DNA from: an uncultured bacterium
GTDB taxonomy: Bacteria; Armatimonadota; HRBIN16
Assembly (NCBI GenBank): GCA_964579145.1
Contig: CAZOGB010000002.1
Span: forward strand, 592 to 64,591
Direction: 5' to 3'
DNA: 64,000 nt
Position 1 is the stretch's first letter; every line of letters starts with the position of its first letter. Shown piece after piece: positions 25,365 through 33,777 of the stretch. The translations under genes were made by a program, and so were the position numbers. Below the pieces are notes generated by a model. The model saw nothing but the letters and a program-made list of their open reading frames with translations. It was not told the origin of the DNA and searched no databases.

Positions 25365-25698
25365 TCCGCATTTCCCCTTCCCGAAAGAGGATGACTTTAT
25401 TGTACTGTGGAACTAAGGAAGAGACAAGGGCAAAACAAAAAATCGCCTGCCTCCAGAGCAATCGGGGTTGGGCGAAGCTCCGGGTGCAGGCTCCATCAAG
25501 ACGATGGACAGAGTGAAAAGGAGGACATGCGCTACTACATAATACGAGGGCGGGACACCGAAAGTTCCACAGGATGTAACCCCGCAGGAGGTGCTCGCGT
25601 CTAAATTGCAGTGGATTAGCAGGAATCCGGGTCTGACCTGCTGTATGATAACCCGGATAACCGTGTGTTGAGAAACAAACCCAACGCGAGGAGAGACG

Positions 25699-27357
25699 AT
25701 GATGCGAATGGGCTTGAAAGGCTTCATCTCTAGAGGATGGACCCGTGCGTTGCCAGCCTGTGTGTTGATTCTACCGATGGTATCTGCGGTGCTCGCTCAA
25801 GATGTTGTTGCCTACCGGTTCTCCCCGGCACACAACGGCATCGCTCCCAGTGGCATCCAGATGCCCGCAGCGATGTCCTGGCGATACACCGCATCGCCAG
25901 CGCCTCAGAACCCCGCGGCGCCCGCAGTGGTTGGTAACACGGTGTACTACGCCTGCCGCGACAGGTTCTACGCGCTCGAGGCGGACAGCGGGCGTGTCAT
26001 CTGGCGGTACCCCACCAACCAGCCGCTGGACGCGCAGTTCCGCACCACCCCAGCGGTGGTCAACGGCATTATTTACGTTGGCGCCACCGATGGGAACCTG
26101 TACGCTCTCTCGGCTACCACGGGTAAATACCTCTGGTCGTTTAAGGCGCAGGGCGCTATCCTCTCGCCGCCAACCGTGGTGGACGATGTGGTGTACTTCG
26201 GCTCTGCCGACGGGCGAGTGTATGCCATCAACGCCAGGACGGGCGAACCGATATGGCGCGGAGGCTTTCGTACGCTGGATGCCGTTAACGGAGCCGTAGC
26301 GGTTGCCGACGACGTGGTCTACTTTATCTCTGCGGACCAGACACTGTACGCGGCGGCGGCAGCGACAGGCTTGCTCCTGTGGCGCCAGCGATTGACAGGC
26401 ACACTTTACGCCCTGTCGCCGGTCGTTGCGGATCGCAACCTTTATGTTGTCGCCTCCAACGTGCTTTATGTTCTGCAGGCGCGAAGCGGACGCCAGCTGT
26501 GGGCACGCACCCTGCCCGATGACATCGTGACGGAACCCGTTGCGGGCAACGGAATGCTGTACGTGCTGACGCGCGACGGGCGCGTGTGGGCGTTTGACAA
26601 CACGGGCAAACTGCTGTGGAACACGAAGGAACCGGTGTTCACCAATCAGGTGCTGGCTCCGCCCACGCTGGCTGGTAACGTGCTTATCATCGGCACGGCA
26701 CGAGGTGGCATCTATGCCCTGGATGCTTCCAACGGCTCCATCCTGTGGAAGTATCTGCTGCAGTCGTCTTCCTCTACGCCCGAACGCCCGACCTTCACCG
26801 ACATCACCGCGCCGCCGGTGGTCGCTAATGGCACGCTGTACATCGTCTCGGACGACGGCAGTCTGACCACCTTCCGCGCGGACGCGCCGGATAGCATCCC
26901 GCCAACCATAACCGAGCTGGAGCCGACTCGCGGTTTGGCAATGTCGGGCGCGCCGCCTATCCGTTTCCGTGCGCTCATCAGCGACGACGGTTCCGGCATC
27001 AAGACCGACACCATCCAGTTCCTGCTGGACGACAGGCCGGTGAAATATGAGTTTGACCTTGCGAAGGGCGAAATCAGCTATCTGTGGGGGAGCAAGGAAG
27101 CCTCGGCAACTCCCACAGGGCAGGAAGGTGGTGCCACCACCGTTCGTCCCCTCGCCGATGGACGGCACACGGTGAAGGTCATCGCCGAGGACTGGCGCGG
27201 TAACCGCACGGAATACACCTGGTTGTTCATCGTGGATAACACCCTGCGCAAGCGCACCACCACCACTCAGCCCCGCCAGCAGGGTGTACCCGGCGTTCCC
27301 GGTGGCATTGGCGGTGGTCGCCGTGGACCGGGCGGACGCGACGAGGGCGGCTACTGA
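25699..27357 (+). CDS. secreted PQQ-repeat beta-propeller protein (BamB-like) with a Gly-rich C-terminal tail
   Basis: Signal peptide; at least seven repeats of the form G-x-(V/L)YxxxxDGxLYALxAxTGxxLW; the C-terminus is GGIGGGRRGPGGRDEGGY. Confidence 0.7.
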   Translation: MMRMGLKGFISRGWTRALPACVLILPMVSAVLAQDVVAYRFSPAHNGIAPSGIQMPAAMSWRYTASPAPQNPAAPAVVGNTVYYACRDRFYALEADSGRVIWRYPTNQPLDAQFRTTPAVVNGIIYVGATDGNLYALSATTGKYLWSFKAQGAILSPPTVVDDVVYFGSADGRVYAINARTGEPIWRGGFRTLDAVNGAVAVADDVVYFISADQTLYAAAAATGLLLWRQRLTGTLYALSPVVADRNLYVVASNVLYVLQARSGRQLWARTLPDDIVTEPVAGNGMLYVLTRDGRVWAFDNTGKLLWNTKEPVFTNQVLAPPTLAGNVLIIGTARGGIYALDASNGSILWKYLLQSSSSTPERPTFTDITAPPVVANGTLYIVSDDGSLTTFRADAPDSIPPTITELEPTRGLAMSGAPPIRFRALISDDGSGIKTDTIQFLLDDRPVKYEFDLAKGEISYLWGSKEASATPTGQEGGATTVRPLADGRHTVKVIAEDWRGNRTEYTWLFIVDNTLRKRTTTTQPRQQGVPGVPGGIGGGRRGPGGRDEGGY

Positions 27358-27373: not shown

Positions 27374-28456
27374 GTGGAGGAAGCTCGCTGTCGTGCCCTG
27401 CTCAGACTGGCGTATCTCGAGCTTCCTCCCCGTCGTCTGCTGAGCCTGCTGGAGCACTTTGAGCGACCTGAAGCCATTTTGCACGCATCTCGCCACGAGC
27501 TGCTGCGCGTTGATGGTATGACCGAAGCCGCTGCGGCGCGCATCCTGAACGCTCCCGAGGTCCCCGAAGAGGTCTGGCAGAGGTGGAAGCAGAGCGATTC
27601 GCGACTTCTCACCTGGCGAGATGATGGCTATCCGCCTGCGCTGAGGGAGATTGAAGACTTTCCTCCCATCCTTTTCGTCCGGGGAAGCCTGCAGGAACGA
27701 GACCGCTTCGCGGTGGCCATTGTGGGCACACGCAAACCCACGGCGTACGGGCGACACGTGGCGGAACGCCTGGCGCGAGAACTGAGCCGATACGGATTGA
27801 CCATTATCAGCGGCGGCGCGAGGGGAATTGACACCTCTGCACACACCGGTGCACTGCGTGCGGGCGGGCGCACCATTGCTGTGCTGGGCTGTGGAATTGA
27901 TGTGGCGTATCCTCCCGAATCCGCCGGGCTGTTCAACCGCATCGCCACCCAGGGGGCGATTCTCTCCGAATATCCTCCCGGCGTTCCGCCCGACGCCTGG
28001 CGGTTTCCGGCGCGAAACCGCATCGTGAGTGCGCTGTCGCTGGGCGTACTGGTGGTGGAGGCTCCAAACGACAGTGGCGCGCTCATCACCGCAAACCATG
28101 CACTGGAGCAGGGCAAGCCGGTGTTTGCCGTACCCGGCAACATCGACACGGGGCAAAGTGCGGGCTGTCACCGGCTGATCAAAGAGGGAGCGACGCTGGT
28201 GGATAACGTGGAGGACATCGTGCGAGCGCTGGGCATCGCCCCGGAGCCACCCCCGGAACGCCCGGCGCAAACGCCTTCGCTGACGCCCGTCCAGCAAAAC
28301 GTTTTGCGCGCTCTCTCCCTGACGCCCAAGCATGTGGACACACTGGCGGAAGAGCTGAATCTGCCCGTTGCTCAGCTGAACGCCGAACTGCTGATGCTGG
28401 AGATGTATGGTCTGGTGCGTCGGCAACCGGGAAACACCTACGTTCGGGTACCATAA
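27374..28456 (+). CDS. dprA: DNA-processing protein DprA (Smf)
   Basis: Rossmann-like DprA core (AIVGTRKPTAYGRHVAERLARELSRYGLTIISGGARGIDTSAH...VVEAPNDSGALITA) with a C-terminal winged helix; GTG start. Confidence 0.8.
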   Translation: MEEARCRALLRLAYLELPPRRLLSLLEHFERPEAILHASRHELLRVDGMTEAAAARILNAPEVPEEVWQRWKQSDSRLLTWRDDGYPPALREIEDFPPILFVRGSLQERDRFAVAIVGTRKPTAYGRHVAERLARELSRYGLTIISGGARGIDTSAHTGALRAGGRTIAVLGCGIDVAYPPESAGLFNRIATQGAILSEYPPGVPPDAWRFPARNRIVSALSLGVLVVEAPNDSGALITANHALEQGKPVFAVPGNIDTGQSAGCHRLIKEGATLVDNVEDIVRALGIAPEPPPERPAQTPSLTPVQQNVLRALSLTPKHVDTLAEELNLPVAQLNAELLMLEMYGLVRRQPGNTYVRVP

Positions 28457-28461
28457 TAGCT

Positions 28462-29268
28462 GTGAAGACACTGGATATCAGCATTGCCGACATCGCCCTG
28501 AGGCTCGAATGCATGGAGGAATCGTTCCTGACCGACCTCGTGCAGGAGCGATACGGGGCGTTCTTGCTCGCACGCGCTGAACAGCCGCACATCCGTGTCC
28601 TTCTTCGACCGAAGCCCTCTCCGCCTACCCGGGCACGTATGGAGAGCGTGAAGGTTCGTCAGGCGGAGGGCGGCTGGCGGTTTGTGTATGATACCTTCGT
28701 GGCGGACGTCGCCCCGGAGGCGGATCGTGCGGAGGTGGACTGCCTGCGCAGTGTGTATGCCGTCGATTCTTTCCTTCGTACCCTGCTGGCTCTGTATCTG
28801 CCCCAACGTGATGGGGTGATGGTACACGCCTCCGCAGTGAGGCATGGACACTGGGGATATGTGTTCGCCGGGCGGTCGGGCGCAGGCAAGAGCACGGTGG
28901 CGCGGATACTGTCGGGCGAGACTGAGGTTCTCAGCGATGAGCTGGTCGCCCTGCGGCGCCTGTCAGGGGCATGGCACGTGTACGGCACACCTTTCTGGGG
29001 CGACTTCGCCCGCGCAGGCGTGAATCTCAACGCACCGCTACGCGCCATTTGCCTGCTTCAGCACGCCAGAGAGCCTCGTCTTGAAAGACTATCACGGCGC
29101 GATGCCCTGACCGGCGTTCTGCAATGCAGTTTGCAGTTCGCCGAGGGTCCGCAGGTTGCCGAATGGATGCTGAATGTGGTCTCTGCGCTGGTGCAGGATG
29201 TGGCGGTTTATCGCCTGTATTTCCCGCCCAGCATAGAGTTCTGGGGAGTGGTGCTGGAAGGAGTATAG
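28462..29268 (+). CDS. HPr-kinase C-terminal-domain-like P-loop kinase (HprK-related)
   Basis: Walker A FAGRSGAGKSTVARIL followed by SDELVAL, resembling the HprK/P C-domain; 5 nt after the dprA stop, so co-transcribed. Confidence 0.5.
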   Translation: MKTLDISIADIALRLECMEESFLTDLVQERYGAFLLARAEQPHIRVLLRPKPSPPTRARMESVKVRQAEGGWRFVYDTFVADVAPEADRAEVDCLRSVYAVDSFLRTLLALYLPQRDGVMVHASAVRHGHWGYVFAGRSGAGKSTVARILSGETEVLSDELVALRRLSGAWHVYGTPFWGDFARAGVNLNAPLRAICLLQHAREPRLERLSRRDALTGVLQCSLQFAEGPQVAEWMLNVVSALVQDVAVYRLYFPPSIEFWGVVLEGV

Positions 29269-29274
29269 ACAGGG

Positions 29275-29643
29275 TTACCCTGTGGACCGCCGCAGCTCGC
29301 CGCGGTGGGAGTTGCCCTCCCAGTAATCCACCAGCAGGTCATGTGCGATGTAGTAGTGCACCGAGTACACCGCCGGGCGACACTGGATCAGCCCCTTCGG
29401 TACGCTGTGGAAAAATGCTTCAGCAATGCGCTGAGCCTCCTCGTGGCAGATGGGTTCCCCATCCACCCGCGTGATAGAGAGATGGAGCAGGTCGTCCTCT
29501 CCTTCAAACTGCACCCGGAAGTCGCCGAGCGTTGTGCCATAGCGTTCCCTTCGGTCGAGCAGGATAGGTATTCCCGCCCGCGTGTCCTCAATAATCGCCT
29601 GCAAAATGCGGCGAACTTCCGGGTGCTCGTGCGTCAGCTCCAT
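29275..29643 (-). CDS. hypothetical protein (122 aa)
   Basis: Start trimmed to the ATG at 29643; 1-nt gap (TAAtATG) to the upstream small gene; no recognisable family. Confidence 0.4.
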   Translation of the reverse strand: MELTHEHPEVRRILQAIIEDTRAGIPILLDRRERYGTTLGDFRVQFEGEDDLLHLSITRVDGEPICHEEAQRIAEAFFHSVPKGLIQCRPAVYSVHYYIAHDLLVDYWEGNSHRGELRRSTG

Positions 29644-29644
29644 A

Positions 29645-29857
29645 TTACACCCCTGCACGTCTGCATCGGTCGGGCGCACAGCGGCAGTGTGCCACCCGTA
29701 CCGTGCCGTCCTGTGTCCATGTAACCAGCGGCTCGTCGAACGTGATAGGCTCCTCACATTGCTGGCAGATGAACAACCAGTTCACGTTCTCCTGTGTACC
29801 CGGCTGGGATGACCCTGCCTGCTTCAGCCGCTCCTTGCGCGTCGCCATCTCCGTCAT
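29645..29857 (-). CDS. hypothetical small Cys-rich protein (about 70 aa), possible zinc ribbon
   Basis: CQQCEEP...HCRCAPDRC spacing suggests a Zn ribbon; start set to the ATG at 29857, 10 nt after AAGGAGG; the track's TTG start at 29878 is embedded in that RBS. Confidence 0.35.
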   Translation of the reverse strand: MTEMATRKERLKQAGSSQPGTQENVNWLFICQQCEEPITFDEPLVTWTQDGTVRVAHCRCAPDRCRRAGV

Positions 29858-29965
29858 CGCATCCCAACCTCCTTTCAACGCGGCGTCATCGCGCTGGCAA
29901 AATGCTTAGACGGATGGCGCACCCTGCAGGTTTCACCGGAATCGGCAGTTTGTCATGCTTTCACC

Positions 29966-31150
29966 CTAAATACCGGGTACAGGCATTCCAAAGCGGTCGG
30001 TTGGATGGTCTGCCACGCGCAAACGCACCCGCCCCCGCTCGTTGCCCCGCTGGATGACCAGTGTGACTTCTGTGCCCGCAGGCAAGGAGGCGATCAGGTT
30101 CTTCAACTCGCCCGGTGAGGTCACTCGCTTGCCGTTACACTCGAGAATGATGTCTTCAATGTCCAACCCGGCGAGGTCGGCAGGACTGTTGCGGAACAGG
30201 TTGGCCACAACCACGCCCTGCACCGTGCCTTCGTCCAGCCGTGCGGGGATGATGCCCAGCCATCCACGCGACACCTTGCCGTAGCGAAGCAACTGCTCCA
30301 TCACGCGCCGGGCTTCATGGCTGGGGATGGCAAAGCCGATGCCCACGTTCCCGCCGCTCTGCGACAGAATGGCGGTATTAATGCCCACCAGCTCGCCGCG
30401 GATGTTCACCAGCGCACCGCCCGAGTTGCCCGGGTTGATGGCGGCATCCGTCTGGATGAAGTCTTCGTACACGGAGATGCCTACGTCTCGCCGTCCCTTT
30501 GCGCTGACGATGCCTGCCGTCACCGTCTGGCTCAGTCCATACGGGTTGCCAATGGCAAGCACCCACTCGCCGACCTCCAGCGCCCGCGAGTCGCCCCATT
30601 TGATAGCAGGCAGGTTGTTCGCGCGAACACGCAGGAGGGCAAGGTCGGTCGCGGGGTCGGTCCCCACTACCTGCACATCCGAAAACCTTCGTCCATCCGC
30701 CAGCGCTACCGAAATGCGGCTCGCGCCGGCAATCACGTGATTATTGGTGAGTATCAACCCGTCCCGGCTGACAATAACGCCCGAGCCCAGGCTGCGCACC
30801 ACGCGGTCAGGCTCCCGGAACGGAATGTCCTCATCGCCGAAGAAGTAGCGGAAGAGGGGGTCATCAAACAGTGGCGACCGCCTGCCCGGGATGATGGTCG
30901 CCGCGCTGATGTTCACTACCGACGGCGTTGCCACCTTCGCGACCGCAGCAAAGGCTTCAGACCTGGTCTTAAGCTGCGTGGACGCCTGCTCAAAGGTGAT
31001 TGGCGGCGGCTCTGGAACGCCCGAACCGGTGTGTGTTCTTACACCCAGCCACCATCCCACAAACAGCGCCAGGAGCACCATCGCCACCACCGCGACAGCA
31101 ACACGCCCCTCAACACGATGCATGGTCAGCGTTTTCTCCTGAACCTGCAT
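29966..31150 (-). CDS. htrA: Do/HtrA-family periplasmic serine endopeptidase with a PDZ domain
   Basis: Trypsin-like catalytic motifs (TNNHVI; GNSGGAL) plus a C-terminal PDZ domain; N-terminal TM anchor. Confidence 0.85.
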   Translation of the reverse strand: MQVQEKTLTMHRVEGRVAVAVVAMVLLALFVGWWLGVRTHTGSGVPEPPPITFEQASTQLKTRSEAFAAVAKVATPSVVNISAATIIPGRRSPLFDDPLFRYFFGDEDIPFREPDRVVRSLGSGVIVSRDGLILTNNHVIAGASRISVALADGRRFSDVQVVGTDPATDLALLRVRANNLPAIKWGDSRALEVGEWVLAIGNPYGLSQTVTAGIVSAKGRRDVGISVYEDFIQTDAAINPGNSGGALVNIRGELVGINTAILSQSGGNVGIGFAIPSHEARRVMEQLLRYGKVSRGWLGIIPARLDEGTVQGVVVANLFRNSPADLAGLDIEDIILECNGKRVTSPGELKNLIASLPAGTEVTLVIQRGNERGRVRLRVADHPTDRFGMPVPGI

Positions 31151-32507
31151 AGATGATTCCCTCCTCTGGGGTCGTTGGACGAACTGTTTGCCATTTCTGG
31201 ATGGGTACTTCGCCCACCACGTAGAAACTGCCTGTTACCACCACGAGGTCATCCGCCTGTGCCATGTTCATTGCCCGCTCCACCGCTTCGGGAACAGAGG
31301 GGATAATCTCGTACGGCGGCAGTGGCACGGTGGACGCTTCGGGCAGGTCGGGTGCAGGTCGCCTGCGCTGGTCGCTGGGCTGGGTGAAGATGATGTGCGA
31401 TGCCAGCGGCGCAAGAGTATCCACCACGCCCTGCGGCTCGTGTCCCCTCGTCATACCCAGCACCAATATCAGGCGGCGGTAAAGAAAGGTCTCGGGTATC
31501 GCCTGAGCCAGACACCGCACTGCGTCCACGTTGTGCGCGCCGTCCAGCAGAAGCGTTGGGGAGCGTCGAACTATCTGCATCCTGCCGGGCATCGTGGCGT
31601 GCTCCAGCCCGATTCGAATCGCGCTCTCCGGCACGTTCACTCGATGAGCATGTTGCAGTGCCTCGATGGCGGCGATGGCGACCGCCGCGTTGGAACACTG
31701 GTGTTTGCCTAGCAGGCGCAAGCTCAGATGACGATAAACCCTGTCGGTGGTGCGCACCGATACCTTCTGGCGCATACGATAGACGCCCTCGTTCTGCCAG
31801 TGCACGGTGCGTACAGGCGGCGGGATGACCATGCGCTCTGGTTTCACTTCAGTCAGCGGCACCCCGGCACGTTTAGCGTGTTCCCGAATCACCTCCAGAG
31901 GCTCCGGGTCGGTCACGCCCGTGACCACAGGCGCACAAGGCTTGATGATGCCCGCCTTCTCCGCTGCGATTTTCGCCAGCGTGTCTCCCAGCCGGTCCAT
32001 GTGGTCCCAGCCGATGGAGGTAATCACGCTCACCAGGGGGCGCACGACGTTGGTGGCATCCAGCCTCCCCCCCAGCCCAACTTCCACCACCGCAAAGTCC
32101 ACCCGCTGTTCGGCAAAGCAGGTAAGCCCCACCGCCGTTTTGAGCTCGAACTCCGTGACCTGCCCCAGCGGCGTCTGCGCCAGCTCTTCAATATGGGGCT
32201 TTATCCATGTCACCAGTCGCGCAAAGTCGGCTTCAGGAATCAGGTAACCGTTGACCTGAATGCGCTCGCGCAGGTTGAACACGTATGGCGAAAGGTACAG
32301 CCCCACTTTATAGCCCGCTGCCTGCAGAATGGTGGCGATAAAGGTGCTGGTGGAACCTTTGCCGTTCGTGCCGGCGACGTGAATGACGCGCAACTGGTGA
32401 TGCGGGTTGCCCAGACGCTCCAGCAATGCCTCGAACCGCTCATTACCGAGCTTGATGCCGAAGCGTTTCAAACCCTGCATGTACATGACGGCGCGTGTGT
32501 AGTCCAT
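31110..32507 (-). CDS. folC: bifunctional folylpolyglutamate synthase / dihydrofolate synthase
   Basis: Mur-ligase fold with HVAGTNGKGST P-loop and FolC-specific motifs; about 60-aa C-terminal extension. Confidence 0.85.
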   Translation of the reverse strand: MDYTRAVMYMQGLKRFGIKLGNERFEALLERLGNPHHQLRVIHVAGTNGKGSTSTFIATILQAAGYKVGLYLSPYVFNLRERIQVNGYLIPEADFARLVTWIKPHIEELAQTPLGQVTEFELKTAVGLTCFAEQRVDFAVVEVGLGGRLDATNVVRPLVSVITSIGWDHMDRLGDTLAKIAAEKAGIIKPCAPVVTGVTDPEPLEVIREHAKRAGVPLTEVKPERMVIPPPVRTVHWQNEGVYRMRQKVSVRTTDRVYRHLSLRLLGKHQCSNAAVAIAAIEALQHAHRVNVPESAIRIGLEHATMPGRMQIVRRSPTLLLDGAHNVDAVRCLAQAIPETFLYRRLILVLGMTRGHEPQGVVDTLAPLASHIIFTQPSDQRRRPAPDLPEASTVPLPPYEIIPSVPEAVERAMNMAQADDLVVVTGSFYVVGEVPIQKWQTVRPTTPEEGIIYAGSGENADHASC

Positions 32508-32532
32508 ATGCCCTTCCTGTTAACCTGTGATA

Positions 32533-33777
32533 TTATACCGCAGGCAGGTGGCGCACATCGCGACGTGCGGCAGTCATCGCTACGACCCCGGCGCATATCA
32601 TCGCGCCGGTCACCAGTGCCGTTGTTGCCGTCCAGTGAGAAGCAATCCATCCCATCAGCAGGTTGCCAAACGGCGCCAGCCCCATGAGCGCAAACACGTG
32701 CAGGGACATCGTGCGCCCGCGCAGATGCTCCGGGCTGAGCGACTGAAGCAGGGCGTTGATAGAACCCAGTGTGCTCACTGCCGAGCCGCCAATCAGCACC
32801 AGACAGAGCAGAGAGAGGGGATAACTGCGCGACAGCGCAAACAGCGTTAAGCCGGTACACAACCCCGTGGCAGCGGTGATGACCACTTTGCCTCTGGGCA
32901 CGGTACCCGCCACCTTCGCCAGTATTAGGGCTCCCGTCAACGCGCCAAAACCAGTTGCTGAAAACAGGTTGCCGAGCCCCTGCTTGCCGACCTGAAGCAC
33001 GTCACGGGCGAAAACGGGCATCAGCGTGGTGTACGACATGGCGAAAATACTCAGCGCGCAGTCCAGCAGGATTAACGACCGCAACAGCCCGTCCCGGTAC
33101 ACATAGGTTAAGCCTTCCTTCAATTCTGACCACACGGATAGTCTTTCCACCGGGGACTGAACGGACGATGCAGGTATCCGCCACAGCGCAAAGATGATGG
33201 CAACATAGCTGACCGCGTTGATGAAGAAACACCATCCCGCGTTCACCATCTCAATCAGCTTGCCCGCGATGGCAGGTCCCAGAATACGTGCGGTGTTGAA
33301 GGCCGCGGAGTTCATTGCCACCCCAACGGTCACAAACTGCTCCCCCACCAGGTCCATCACCATCGCCTGGCGGGCGGGCGCGTCGATGGCGGTGATGAAG
33401 CCGTTTAGCATAGCAATCAGCGCGATGTGCCAGAACGCCACCCGACCACTCAGTACGAGTATCGCCAGGATGAACGCATTTATCGCGAACAGGGATTGCG
33501 TAGTGAGAACCAGCCTGCGCTTTTCAAAGCGGTCGGCAACCACTCCGCCAAACAGGCTGAACAGCGTGGTCGGCAGCGACCCCACAAACCCTAGAAGCCC
33601 CAGAAGCATTTTACTGTTGGTGATTTCATAAACCACCCATCCCTGAGCGACCGTCTGCATCCAGCTGCCGAGAAAGGAGACGAACGCTCCAATCCAGTAG
33701 CTGCGATAGACCGTATTCTGCCACAACGCAATCGCGGAGGGGGCTGTGTGGCTTTCTGTGCTCTGCTGACGCTCCAT
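32533..33777 (-). CDS. MFS transporter (enterobactin-exporter EntS-like)
   Basis: 12-TM MFS topology; EntS-like family resemblance. Confidence 0.7.
   Translation of the reverse strand: MERQQSTESHTAPSAIALWQNTVYRSYWIGAFVSFLGSWMQTVAQGWVVYEITNSKMLLGLLGFVGSLPTTLFSLFGGVVADRFEKRRLVLTTQSLFAINAFILAILVLSGRVAFWHIALIAMLNGFITAIDAPARQAMVMDLVGEQFVTVGVAMNSAAFNTARILGPAIAGKLIEMVNAGWCFFINAVSYVAIIFALWRIPASSVQSPVERLSVWSELKEGLTYVYRDGLLRSLILLDCALSIFAMSYTTLMPVFARDVLQVGKQGLGNLFSATGFGALTGALILAKVAGTVPRGKVVITAATGLCTGLTLFALSRSYPLSLLCLVLIGGSAVSTLGSINALLQSLSPEHLRGRTMSLHVFALMGLAPFGNLLMGWIASHWTATTALVTGAMICAGVVAMTAARRDVRHLPAV

What the first reader, a model, noticed from the sequence alone, without database searches (positions are those of the whole stretch)
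27374..29878. dprA co-transcribed with an HprK-C-domain-like P-loop kinase, facing a convergent Cys-ribbon plus unknown two-gene cassette
The dprA stop is 5 nt before the GTG of a 268-aa protein with a GRSGAGKST Walker A motif resembling the HPr kinase/phosphorylase C-domain. Such HprK-related kinases are usually found in peptide-modification or PqqD-type systems, not with DprA. Converging on it is a tightly coupled pair (TAAtATG): a roughly 70-aa Cys4/His putative zinc ribbon and a 122-aa protein with no recognisable family. The three unknowns form a compact, possibly functionally linked unit.
Basis: partly seen in the sequence, partly recalled or inferred. Interest (0 to 1): 0.5.

Follow-up and report, generated by a model that had tools for sequence, protein, structure and literature searches.

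The report
Orphan ScmC-type kinase behind dprA
A kinase-like gene that in other bacteria belongs to peptide-modification gene cassettes is fixed directly behind the DNA-uptake gene dprA in a group of hot-spring Armatimonadota, while the two small genes facing it belong to a separate protease operon; this is a modest curiosity, not a new system.

Summary
The sequence facts are correct. dprA (27374-28456) ends 5 nt before a 268-aa P-loop protein (28462-29268). A TAAtATG-coupled pair, a 70-aa zinc ribbon and a 122-aa protein, converges on it with a 6-nt gap.

The 268-aa protein belongs to the ScmC family (Pfam PF27840). Its predicted fold matches PEP carboxykinase and HPr kinase, and all catalytic motifs are intact.

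In about 90 loci from other phyla, ScmC homologues sit in cassettes with a radical-SAM/SPASM enzyme, PqqD and a nucleotidyltransferase. These cassettes also encode a ~55-aa peptide ending in Ser. None has dprA nearby.

In a clade of thermophilic Armatimonadota (55-93% identity, 15 lineages including the window), the order beta-propeller, dprA, scmC-like is never broken, although the flanks differ. No cassette partner lies nearby.

The small-gene pair always follows MFS-FolC-HtrA. It lies next to the kinase gene in about half of the lineages, and about 190 kb away in one 3.25-Mb contig.

So there are two independent units, not one three-gene cassette. The kinase is probably active, but its substrate is unknown. 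Interest is moderate to low.

The parts
25699..27357 (+). First gene of the conserved trio. It encodes a secreted PQQ-like beta-propeller (552 aa) with a signal peptide, an Ig-like domain and a Gly/Arg-rich tail ending in an invariant Tyr.
   Evidence: PQQ_2 E=1e-64. It lies upstream of dprA in every clade-A locus with enough flank. The tail and C-terminal Tyr are shown. dN/dS is 0.05-0.08.
27374..28456 (+). dprA, a canonical three-domain DprA (HhH/SAM, Rossmann and winged-helix domains), 360 aa.
   Evidence: PF02481 E=2.5e-79 and PF17782 E=4.5e-17. TIGR00732 scores 268.5 bits against a cut-off of 191. dN/dS is 0.06-0.10.
28462..29268 (+). ScmC-family P-loop kinase-like protein (268 aa). The N-domain spans roughly residues 1-97 and the PEPCK/HprK-type nucleotide-binding domain roughly 98-268. 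Key motifs are H122, GRSGAGKST (137-145), D159-E160 and TPFWG (176-180).
29275..29643 (-). p122, a small alpha/beta protein of unknown function with an invariant FEGEDDLLH motif. It is the last gene of the HtrA block.
29645..29857 (-). p70, a C2HC zinc-ribbon-like small protein. It is translationally coupled to p122 through TAAtATG.
   Evidence: Five homologous clusters. Invariant residues are C31, C34, H57 and C60. It always precedes p122 and follows HtrA.
29966..31150 (-). HtrA/DegP-like serine protease (Trypsin_2 plus PDZ). It is the gene upstream of the p70-p122 pair in every locus.
   Evidence: Trypsin_2 E=2.2e-35 and PDZ_2 E=1.6e-11. Synteny is shown.
31110..33777 (-). FolC-like Mur ligase (31110-32507) and an MFS transporter (32533-33777). 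These form the head of the block that carries HtrA, p70 and p122.
   Evidence: ORFs are listed.
25463..25650 (+). Conserved leader region upstream of the propeller gene. It includes an invariant AAAGGAGGACATGCGCTACT block, that is, a Shine-Dalgarno sequence plus an ATG at 25527.
   Evidence: Alignment of six lineages. There is no Rfam match and no convincing covariation.

Best explanation
The window shows the ends of two independent, converging gene blocks.

Block A (+ strand) is a probable operon: a secreted PQQ-like beta-propeller, then DprA, then a 268-aa ScmC-family protein.

The ScmC-family protein is a compact two-domain ATP-binding kinase of the PEP-carboxykinase/HPr-kinase fold. It keeps the His, P-loop and Asp-Glu catalytic constellation. 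Elsewhere this family is built into radical-SAM/SPASM-PqqD peptide-maturation cassettes, whose precursor peptides end in Ser.

In this thermophilic Armatimonadota clade the gene has left that cassette. It has acquired its own invariant N-domain signature and has become fixed behind dprA.

The most likely mechanism is inferred, not shown: it transfers the gamma-phosphate of ATP to a hydroxyl group of a protein or peptide substrate that is not a neighbouring RiPP precursor. Its conserved position reflects co-transcription with the propeller gene and dprA.

Block B (- strand) is MFS, FolC, HtrA protease, a C2HC zinc-ribbon protein (70 aa) and a 122-aa protein. The two small proteins form a lineage-restricted, translationally coupled pair that belongs to this block, not to the kinase.
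For: Family and fold:
- All 120 listed homologues carry PF27840 ScmC.
- Weak NCBIfam hits go to ScmC and to HprK-related kinases B and A.
- The AF2 model has pLDDT 93.9.
- A family profile aligns the HA...F.G.SGxGKT motif to Thermus PEPCK.
- H122, G137, S139, G142, K143, T145, D159, E160 and TPFWG are invariant across 71 sequences.

Cassette context elsewhere:
- In clade-B loci with enough flank, ScmC is almost always followed by PqqD and an rSAM/SPASM gene. NTP_transf_5 and a peptide ending in Ser are usually present. None has DprA.

Conserved trio:
- 14 clusters plus the window have DprA directly upstream in all 12 clusters with enough flank, and the propeller upstream of that.
- The downstream neighbour is of at least five kinds, and the upstream neighbour differs once.
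- Clade-specific invariant block: AEGGWRFVYDTFVAD.
- There is purifying selection, with dN/dS 0.13-0.17.
- No rSAM, PqqD or NTP_transf_5 homologue occurs in the 64-kb window.

Independence of the pair:
- The pair always follows HtrA.
- It lies at 1.85 Mb versus 2.04 Mb for dprA-scmC on the same 3.25-Mb contig.
Against: - No biochemical data exist for any ScmC-family member, so kinase activity and substrate class are inferred from fold and motifs only.
- The best structural match is PEPCK, a small-molecule enzyme, so a non-protein substrate is possible.
- Whole genomes could not be searched, so cassette partners could exist elsewhere in these genomes.
- Conserved order within one fairly narrow clade may be inherited synteny rather than functional coupling.
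- In one lineage, 54-1012 nt of repeats and a GIY-YIG gene sit between dprA and scmC. Tight coupling is therefore not required.
- The p122 adjacency appears ancestral on a neighbour-joining tree, so a functional link with the pair is not rigorously excluded.
Confidence: 0.55

Rival explanations
1. One reading: the kinase-like protein, the zinc-ribbon protein and the 122-aa protein form one compact functional cassette next to dprA.
For: The genes converge with a 6-nt gap or a 4-nt overlap. This arrangement occurs in 7 of 13 lineages, down to 59% kinase identity, and looks ancestral on a neighbour-joining tree.
Against: Six lineages have unrelated genes downstream of the kinase gene: PfkB, MoxR, MucB/anti-sigma, a permease and others. 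In one 3.25-Mb contig the pair lies about 190 kb away, still behind HtrA. The pair is on the opposite strand, in another transcription unit.
Confidence: 0.08
2. The kinase acts on DprA or on the recombination/transformation machinery. This would give these bacteria a phosphorylation switch on DNA processing.
For: dprA-scmC adjacency on the same strand is invariant in all 12 testable clusters, mostly with 5-14 nt gaps, despite rearranged flanks. The clade has its own invariant N-domain block, suggesting a new partner.
Against: The linkage is confined to one clade. No other ScmC homologue lies near dprA. No paper in the library links DprA to HPr-kinase-like proteins. Insertions of up to 1 kb are tolerated between the two genes. 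Bacterial operons often mix unrelated functions.
Confidence: 0.15
3. The kinase still works in a dispersed peptide-maturation pathway whose PqqD, radical-SAM and precursor genes lie elsewhere in the genome. Its position behind dprA is incidental.
For: Nearly every homologue outside the clade is cassette-bound. The catalytic motifs are unchanged.
Against: No partner lies within about 6-8 kb in any clade-A locus or anywhere in the 64-kb window. RiPP genes are normally clustered. The N-domain has diverged into a clade-specific form.
Confidence: 0.15
4. The old functional pair is the kinase plus the secreted PQQ-like propeller, and dprA is a passenger. The kinase would modify the propeller protein, for example its Gly/Arg-rich tail with the invariant C-terminal Tyr.
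For: The propeller is as invariant a neighbour as DprA. 37 clade-B cassettes also carry a secreted CBM96 plus PQQ-like propeller protein. The clade-A tail always ends in Tyr. Cassette peptides end in Ser, and lasso-peptide HprK homologues phosphorylate a C-terminal Ser (PMC8498205).
Against: The two propellers are only marginally similar (E about 1e-4), and such propellers are common. The propeller protein is exported whereas the kinase is cytoplasmic. Other clade-B subtypes lack a propeller.
Confidence: 0.08
5. The gene pair is a DprA-like antitoxin with a toxin, as in the ShosTA or PsyrTA defence systems. The kinase would take the toxin role.
For: DprA matches the PADLOC models ShosA (E=6e-63) and PsyrA (E=9e-34).
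Against: Any true DprA matches those models, because ShosA is a DprA homologue. This protein passes the dprA equivalog cut-off. It also has the C-terminal winged helix, which is absent from the two-domain architecture described for ShosA (PMC11961720). No phosphoribosyltransferase toxin is adjacent. The locus is core, syntenic and under strong purifying selection, unlike a defence island.
Confidence: 0.03

Closest known systems
ScmC (SynChlorMet cassette protein C; TIGR04249 / Pfam PF27840)
   Same: Same Pfam family according to the precomputed hits of all homologues. Same length class, two-domain build and invariant motifs.
   Different: It scores 27.6 bits against the equivalog cut-off of 125. 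It has no PqqD, radical-SAM/SPASM or precursor gene nearby and sits behind dprA instead. Its N-domain signature is clade-specific.
HPr kinase/phosphorylase (HprK/P) and the HprK homologues of lasso-peptide clusters
ATP-dependent PEP carboxykinase
   Different: The protein is half the size (268 versus about 510-540 aa). Sequence similarity is marginal (E about 0.01). NCBIfam PEPCK E=0.038 against a cut-off of 369 bits.
HprK-related kinases A and B (TIGR04352, TIGR04355)
   Same: Weak local matches around the P-loop region (E=1.3e-3 and 1.2e-5). These families are also accompanied by PqqD-like proteins (my own knowledge of the TIGRFAMs descriptions).
   Different: Scores are 17.9 and 24.6 bits against cut-offs of 200, and their partner genes are absent here.

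Membership tests
Pfam PF27840 ScmC family | Match to the family model | tested here: inconclusive
   The model is not in the local Pfam copy, so the window protein could not be scored. All 120 listed homologues carry the precomputed hit, including one at 93% identity. Membership is therefore very likely.
SynChlorMet cassette ScmC (TIGR04249 equivalog) | Score at or above the curated cut-off (125 bits) | tested here: not met
   27.6 bits, E=1.7e-6, covering residues 114-225 only.
SynChlorMet cassette ScmC (TIGR04249 equivalog) | Adjacent PqqD homologue and radical-SAM/SPASM maturase(s) | tested here: not met
   tblastn finds none in the 64-kb window and none within about 6-8 kb in any clade-A locus. 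Nearly all clade-B loci with enough flank have them.
HPr kinase/phosphorylase | C-terminal P-loop kinase domain fold with His, Walker A and an acidic pair | tested here: met
HPr kinase/phosphorylase | Sequence match to Hpr_kinase_C/Hpr_kinase_N models and the HprK-type N-domain | tested here: not met
HprK-related kinase A / B (TIGR04352 / TIGR04355) | Score at or above the curated cut-off (200 bits) | tested here: not met
   17.9 and 24.6 bits.
ATP-dependent PEP carboxykinase | Full-length enzyme (about 510-540 aa) that matches the PEPCK family models | tested here: not met
   The protein is 268 aa. NCBIfam PRK09344 E=0.038 against a cut-off of 369 bits. The similarity is structural only.
Any of the above kinases | ATP-dependent phosphotransfer activity | not testable with these tools
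   This needs a biochemical assay.
DprA (TIGR00732) | Equivalog score plus the HhH/SAM, Rossmann and winged-helix architecture | tested here: met
   268.5 bits against a cut-off of 191. PF02481, PF17782 and HHH_5 all match.
ShosTA / PsyrTA defence systems | DprA-like antitoxin adjacent to a phosphoribosyltransferase-type toxin | tested here: not met
   The neighbours are a PQQ-like propeller and the ScmC-like protein. The kinase, p70, p122 and the propeller have no PADLOC hit. The architecture includes DprA_WH, unlike the two-domain ShosA (PMC11961720).

The most novel reading that the evidence does not exclude
A kinase recruited from a radical-SAM peptide-maturation cassette now phosphorylates a co-encoded cellular protein. 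The target would be DprA itself or the Tyr-terminated tail of the secreted propeller. This would give these thermophilic Armatimonadota a previously unknown post-translational control linked to DNA processing or to the cell envelope.
Probability: 0.12. Interest if true: 0.6.

Novelty: new variant of a known kind. Interest (0 to 1): 0.3.

Why it matters
ScmC-family proteins have no experimentally known function. I found no paper on them in the searchable library.

This locus shows that the family is not restricted to peptide-maturation cassettes. One clade has kept an intact, selected kinase core in a completely different and stable context.

That makes it a clean, partner-free member for biochemical work on the family. 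If it acts on DprA, it would reveal a new way of regulating recombination.

The comparison also sharpened a testable idea for the cassette-type members. They are paired with peptides that always end in Ser, like the substrates of lasso-peptide HprK homologues.

As a genome feature of this window, however, it is a modest finding.

Tried and rejected
- Exact look-up of the window's kinase protein in the assembly index found nothing on record.
- Literature searches gave nothing useful. 'ScmC' returned only unrelated acronyms, 'SynChlorMet' matched 0 papers, and 'DprA' with 'HPr kinase' matched 0 papers.
- The Deinococcus RqkA papers hold no evidence that DprA is phosphorylated, so I did not use that as a precedent.
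I compensated with a clade-specific metagenome scan.
- Sequence search of the kinase against PDB sequences found only P-loop noise.
- p70 has only a sub-threshold DUF7576 hit.
- PADLOC finds nothing for the kinase, p70, p122 or the propeller. I rejected the DprA hits to ShosA/PsyrA as simple homology.
- Promoter and terminator scans show nothing convincing between the genes.
- Rfam and tRNA scans of the window are empty.
- The conserved leader upstream of the propeller gene shows no convincing covariation.
Full report
**1. Observation**

The ORF map and the raw sequence confirm every stated fact.
- dprA occupies 27374-28456 (+) and ends in TAA. Five bases later a GTG at 28462 opens a 268-aa ORF ending at 29268, with GRSGAGKST at residues 137-145.
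- On the minus strand, a 70-aa ORF (ATG at 29857, AAGGAGG 10 nt upstream, stop at 29645) is joined by TAAtATG to a 122-aa ORF (29643-29275).
- The stop codons of the 268-aa and 122-aa genes are 6 nt apart.
- DprA is canonical: PF02481 E=2.5e-79, DprA_WH E=4.5e-17, and TIGR00732 268.5 bits against a cut-off of 191.

**2. What the 268-aa protein is**

Sequence evidence:
- Local Pfam sees only P-loop noise.
- NCBIfam gives sub-threshold hits to ScmC (TIGR04249, E=1.7e-6), HprK-related kinase B (1.2e-5) and HprK-related kinase A (1.3e-3).
- A database search finds 446 homologues. All 120 listed carry the precomputed Pfam family PF27840, which the context tables name ScmC.

Structural evidence:
- An AlphaFold2 model built on 71 sequences is confident (pLDDT 93.9, pTM 0.91).
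- Foldseek against the PDB ranks ATP-dependent PEP carboxykinases first (E about 2e-9), then HPr kinase/phosphorylases (E 3e-6 to 1e-4).
- A family profile aligns 'lHAaa.vvregrayvFaGrSGaGKsT' to Thermus PEPCK '[26 protein letters not shown]'.

Conservation:
- H122, G137, S139, G142, K143, T145, D159, E160 and T176-G180 (TPFWG) are invariant across the family.
- From established knowledge of PEPCK and HprK/P, the His, the P-loop Lys/Thr and the acidic pair form the phosphotransfer site. Their equivalence here rests on these alignments and is an inference.
- The gene is under purifying selection (dN/dS 0.13-0.17). This is looser than for dprA (0.06-0.10) or the propeller gene (0.05-0.08).

**3. 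Where the family normally lives**

I collected 118 loci and scored their neighbours by tblastn. The homologues split cleanly into two groups.

Clade B (25-46% identity, about 90 loci):
- The loci whose record titles name an organism come from Acidobacteriota, Nitrospirota, Polyangiaceae, Chloroflexia, Verrucomicrobia, Syntrophus and Thermomonas.
- Nearly every locus with enough flank has a PqqD gene abutting the 3' end of scmC, followed by a radical-SAM/SPASM gene. An NTP_transf_5 nucleotidyltransferase is usually present.
- These loci also encode a ~55-aa peptide of the type '...KPYxKPxFRxExVFETMALACGKV..TQ..C..NRKNS'. Every recovered copy ends in Ser.
- 37 of these loci also encode a secreted 752-aa CBM96 plus PQQ-like propeller protein, a 164-aa protein and a signal-peptidase-like protein.
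- None has dprA.
- No NCBIfam model names this cassette.
[quoted passage not shown] The parallel suggests, but does not show, that cassette-type ScmC proteins are peptide Ser kinases.

**4. The dprA-linked clade**

- Clade A (55-93% identity) comprises 14 clusters at 97% plus the window. Where named, they come from hot-spring Armatimonadota/Chthonomonadetes MAGs.
- The closest relative is GCA_013314755.1, with 92-99% protein identity across the block.
- In all 12 clusters with enough upstream sequence, DprA lies directly upstream on the same strand, and the PQQ-like propeller lies upstream of that.
- The downstream neighbour is p122 (7 lineages), PfkB, MoxR, a MucB/anti-sigma/ECF-sigma set, a permease or something else. 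The upstream neighbour is MgtC/QRPTase, or a helicase in one lineage.
- The two internal junctions of the trio are therefore never broken, while the two outer ones were broken at least five times.
- No PqqD, rSAM, NTP_transf_5 or precursor homologue lies near any clade-A gene or anywhere in the 64-kb window.
- Clade A has its own invariant N-domain block, AEGGWRFVYDTFVAD.
- One caveat applies. In one lineage the dprA-scmC spacer grows from 54 to 1012 nt, filled by a short repeat and, in L043, a 109-aa GIY-YIG ORF. Adjacency survives, but tight coupling is not required.

**5. The convergent pair**

- p122 has 26 close homologues without any Pfam domain. It has 54 clusters among 1.84 billion representatives, so it is a small family with an invariant FEGEDDLLH motif.
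- Its model is good (pLDDT 87.7), but no informative structural neighbour was found.
- p70 has five homologous clusters and an invariant C31/C34/H57/C60 set.
- Wherever the flank is available, the pair follows MFS-FolC-HtrA on the same strand.
- On the 3.25-Mb contig Ga0669692_00001 the pair lies at 1.84-1.86 Mb behind HtrA, while propeller-dprA-scmC lies at 2.04-2.05 Mb.
- A neighbour-joining tree suggests that the adjacency to scmC is ancestral and was lost several times. Both units stay intact when separated.
- The pair is therefore the tail of the HtrA block, not part of a kinase cassette.

**6. Mechanism**

What is shown:
- the fold, the motifs and purifying selection;
- the conserved propeller-dprA-scmC order;
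- the absence of cassette partners nearby;
- the independence of the small-gene pair.

What is inferred:
- the protein is an active ATP-dependent kinase;
- its substrate is a protein or peptide hydroxyl, by analogy with HprK/P, the lasso-peptide kinases and the Ser-terminated cassette peptides;
- it is co-transcribed with dprA. The gaps are 5-14 nt in most lineages, and no terminator is predicted.

The substrate is unknown. Candidates, in my order of preference, are:
- an unlinked cellular protein;
- DprA;
- the propeller's Gly/Arg-rich tail with its invariant C-terminal Tyr;
- a small molecule, given the PEPCK-like two-domain build.

A ShosTA/PsyrTA-like reading is rejected, although DprA hits those PADLOC models. 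ShosA is simply a DprA homologue with a two-domain architecture, whereas this protein has the winged helix and passes the dprA equivalog cut-off. No phosphoribosyltransferase is present, and the locus is core and syntenic (PMC11961720).

**7. Verdict**

It is wrong about the three-gene unit.
- The feature is a new variant of a known kind: an orphan ScmC-family kinase outside its cassette.
- It is of moderate to low interest unless a link to DprA or to the propeller is demonstrated.

Noticed in passing
L005:4651-11739 and about 80 further loci (e.g. L054-L118, L006-L013): A widespread cassette that no NCBIfam model names, in loci whose named records are mostly Acidobacteriota. It encodes NTP_transf_5, ScmC, PqqD, rSAM/SPASM and a ~55-aa peptide '...VFETMALACGKV..TQ..C..NRKNS' that always ends in Ser. 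It often also encodes a secreted CBM96 plus PQQ-like propeller protein, a 164-aa protein and a signal-peptidase-like protein. It looks like an undescribed RiPP family with possible C-terminal Ser phosphorylation.
   Followed up: partly
window 25463-25650 (+), between mgtC and the propeller gene: A strongly conserved non-coding block in six lineages. It includes an invariant AAAGGAGGACATGCGCTACT, that is, a Shine-Dalgarno sequence plus an ATG at 25527 encoding MRYY.... The reading frame is not conserved beyond about 7 codons. There is no Rfam match and no clear covariation. It may be a leader peptide or a regulatory element of the propeller-dprA-scmC operon.
   Followed up: partly
L043:4990-6000; L044:5852-6000; L048:1447-1584; L047:5948-6000: In one lineage the dprA-scmC spacer holds copies of a repeat (GTCATTCTGAGCGCAAGCGAAGAATCTCAGAGATGCTTCA...). 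In L043 it also holds a 109-aa GIY-YIG-type ORF. This looks like a small mobile element inserted inside the operon.
   Followed up: partly
window 27250-27357 (C-terminus of the propeller protein): The secreted PQQ-like propeller ends in a low-complexity Gly/Arg/Pro tail whose last residue is Tyr in all seven lineages examined (..GRDEGGY..GDEGY..GEEGY..REGDY..GDLGY..GDLEY).
   Followed up: no
window 31110-31150: The FolC-like gene and the HtrA-like gene overlap by 41 nt on the minus strand. The same overlap is called in relatives, for example L025 4504-4544.
   Followed up: no
L028:7820-7993: The p70 orthologue in this Logan assembly is split between two reading frames and was not called as a gene. 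This is either a frameshift or an assembly error.
   Followed up: no
P0155, P0161, P0172 (distant p122 homologues): Several distant p122-family proteins carry N-terminal extensions such as 'EWSKERDWKSRIRQRIVGSNPTRSA' or 'GFESLPLRQ'. From my own experience these look like read-through of an upstream tRNA gene. If so, those homologues sit directly after a tRNA.
   Followed up: no
window 27374-28456: The housekeeping-type DprA scores strongly against the PADLOC models ShosA (E=6e-63) and PsyrA (E=9e-34). Defence-system annotation pipelines could therefore mislabel this gene.
   Followed up: yes
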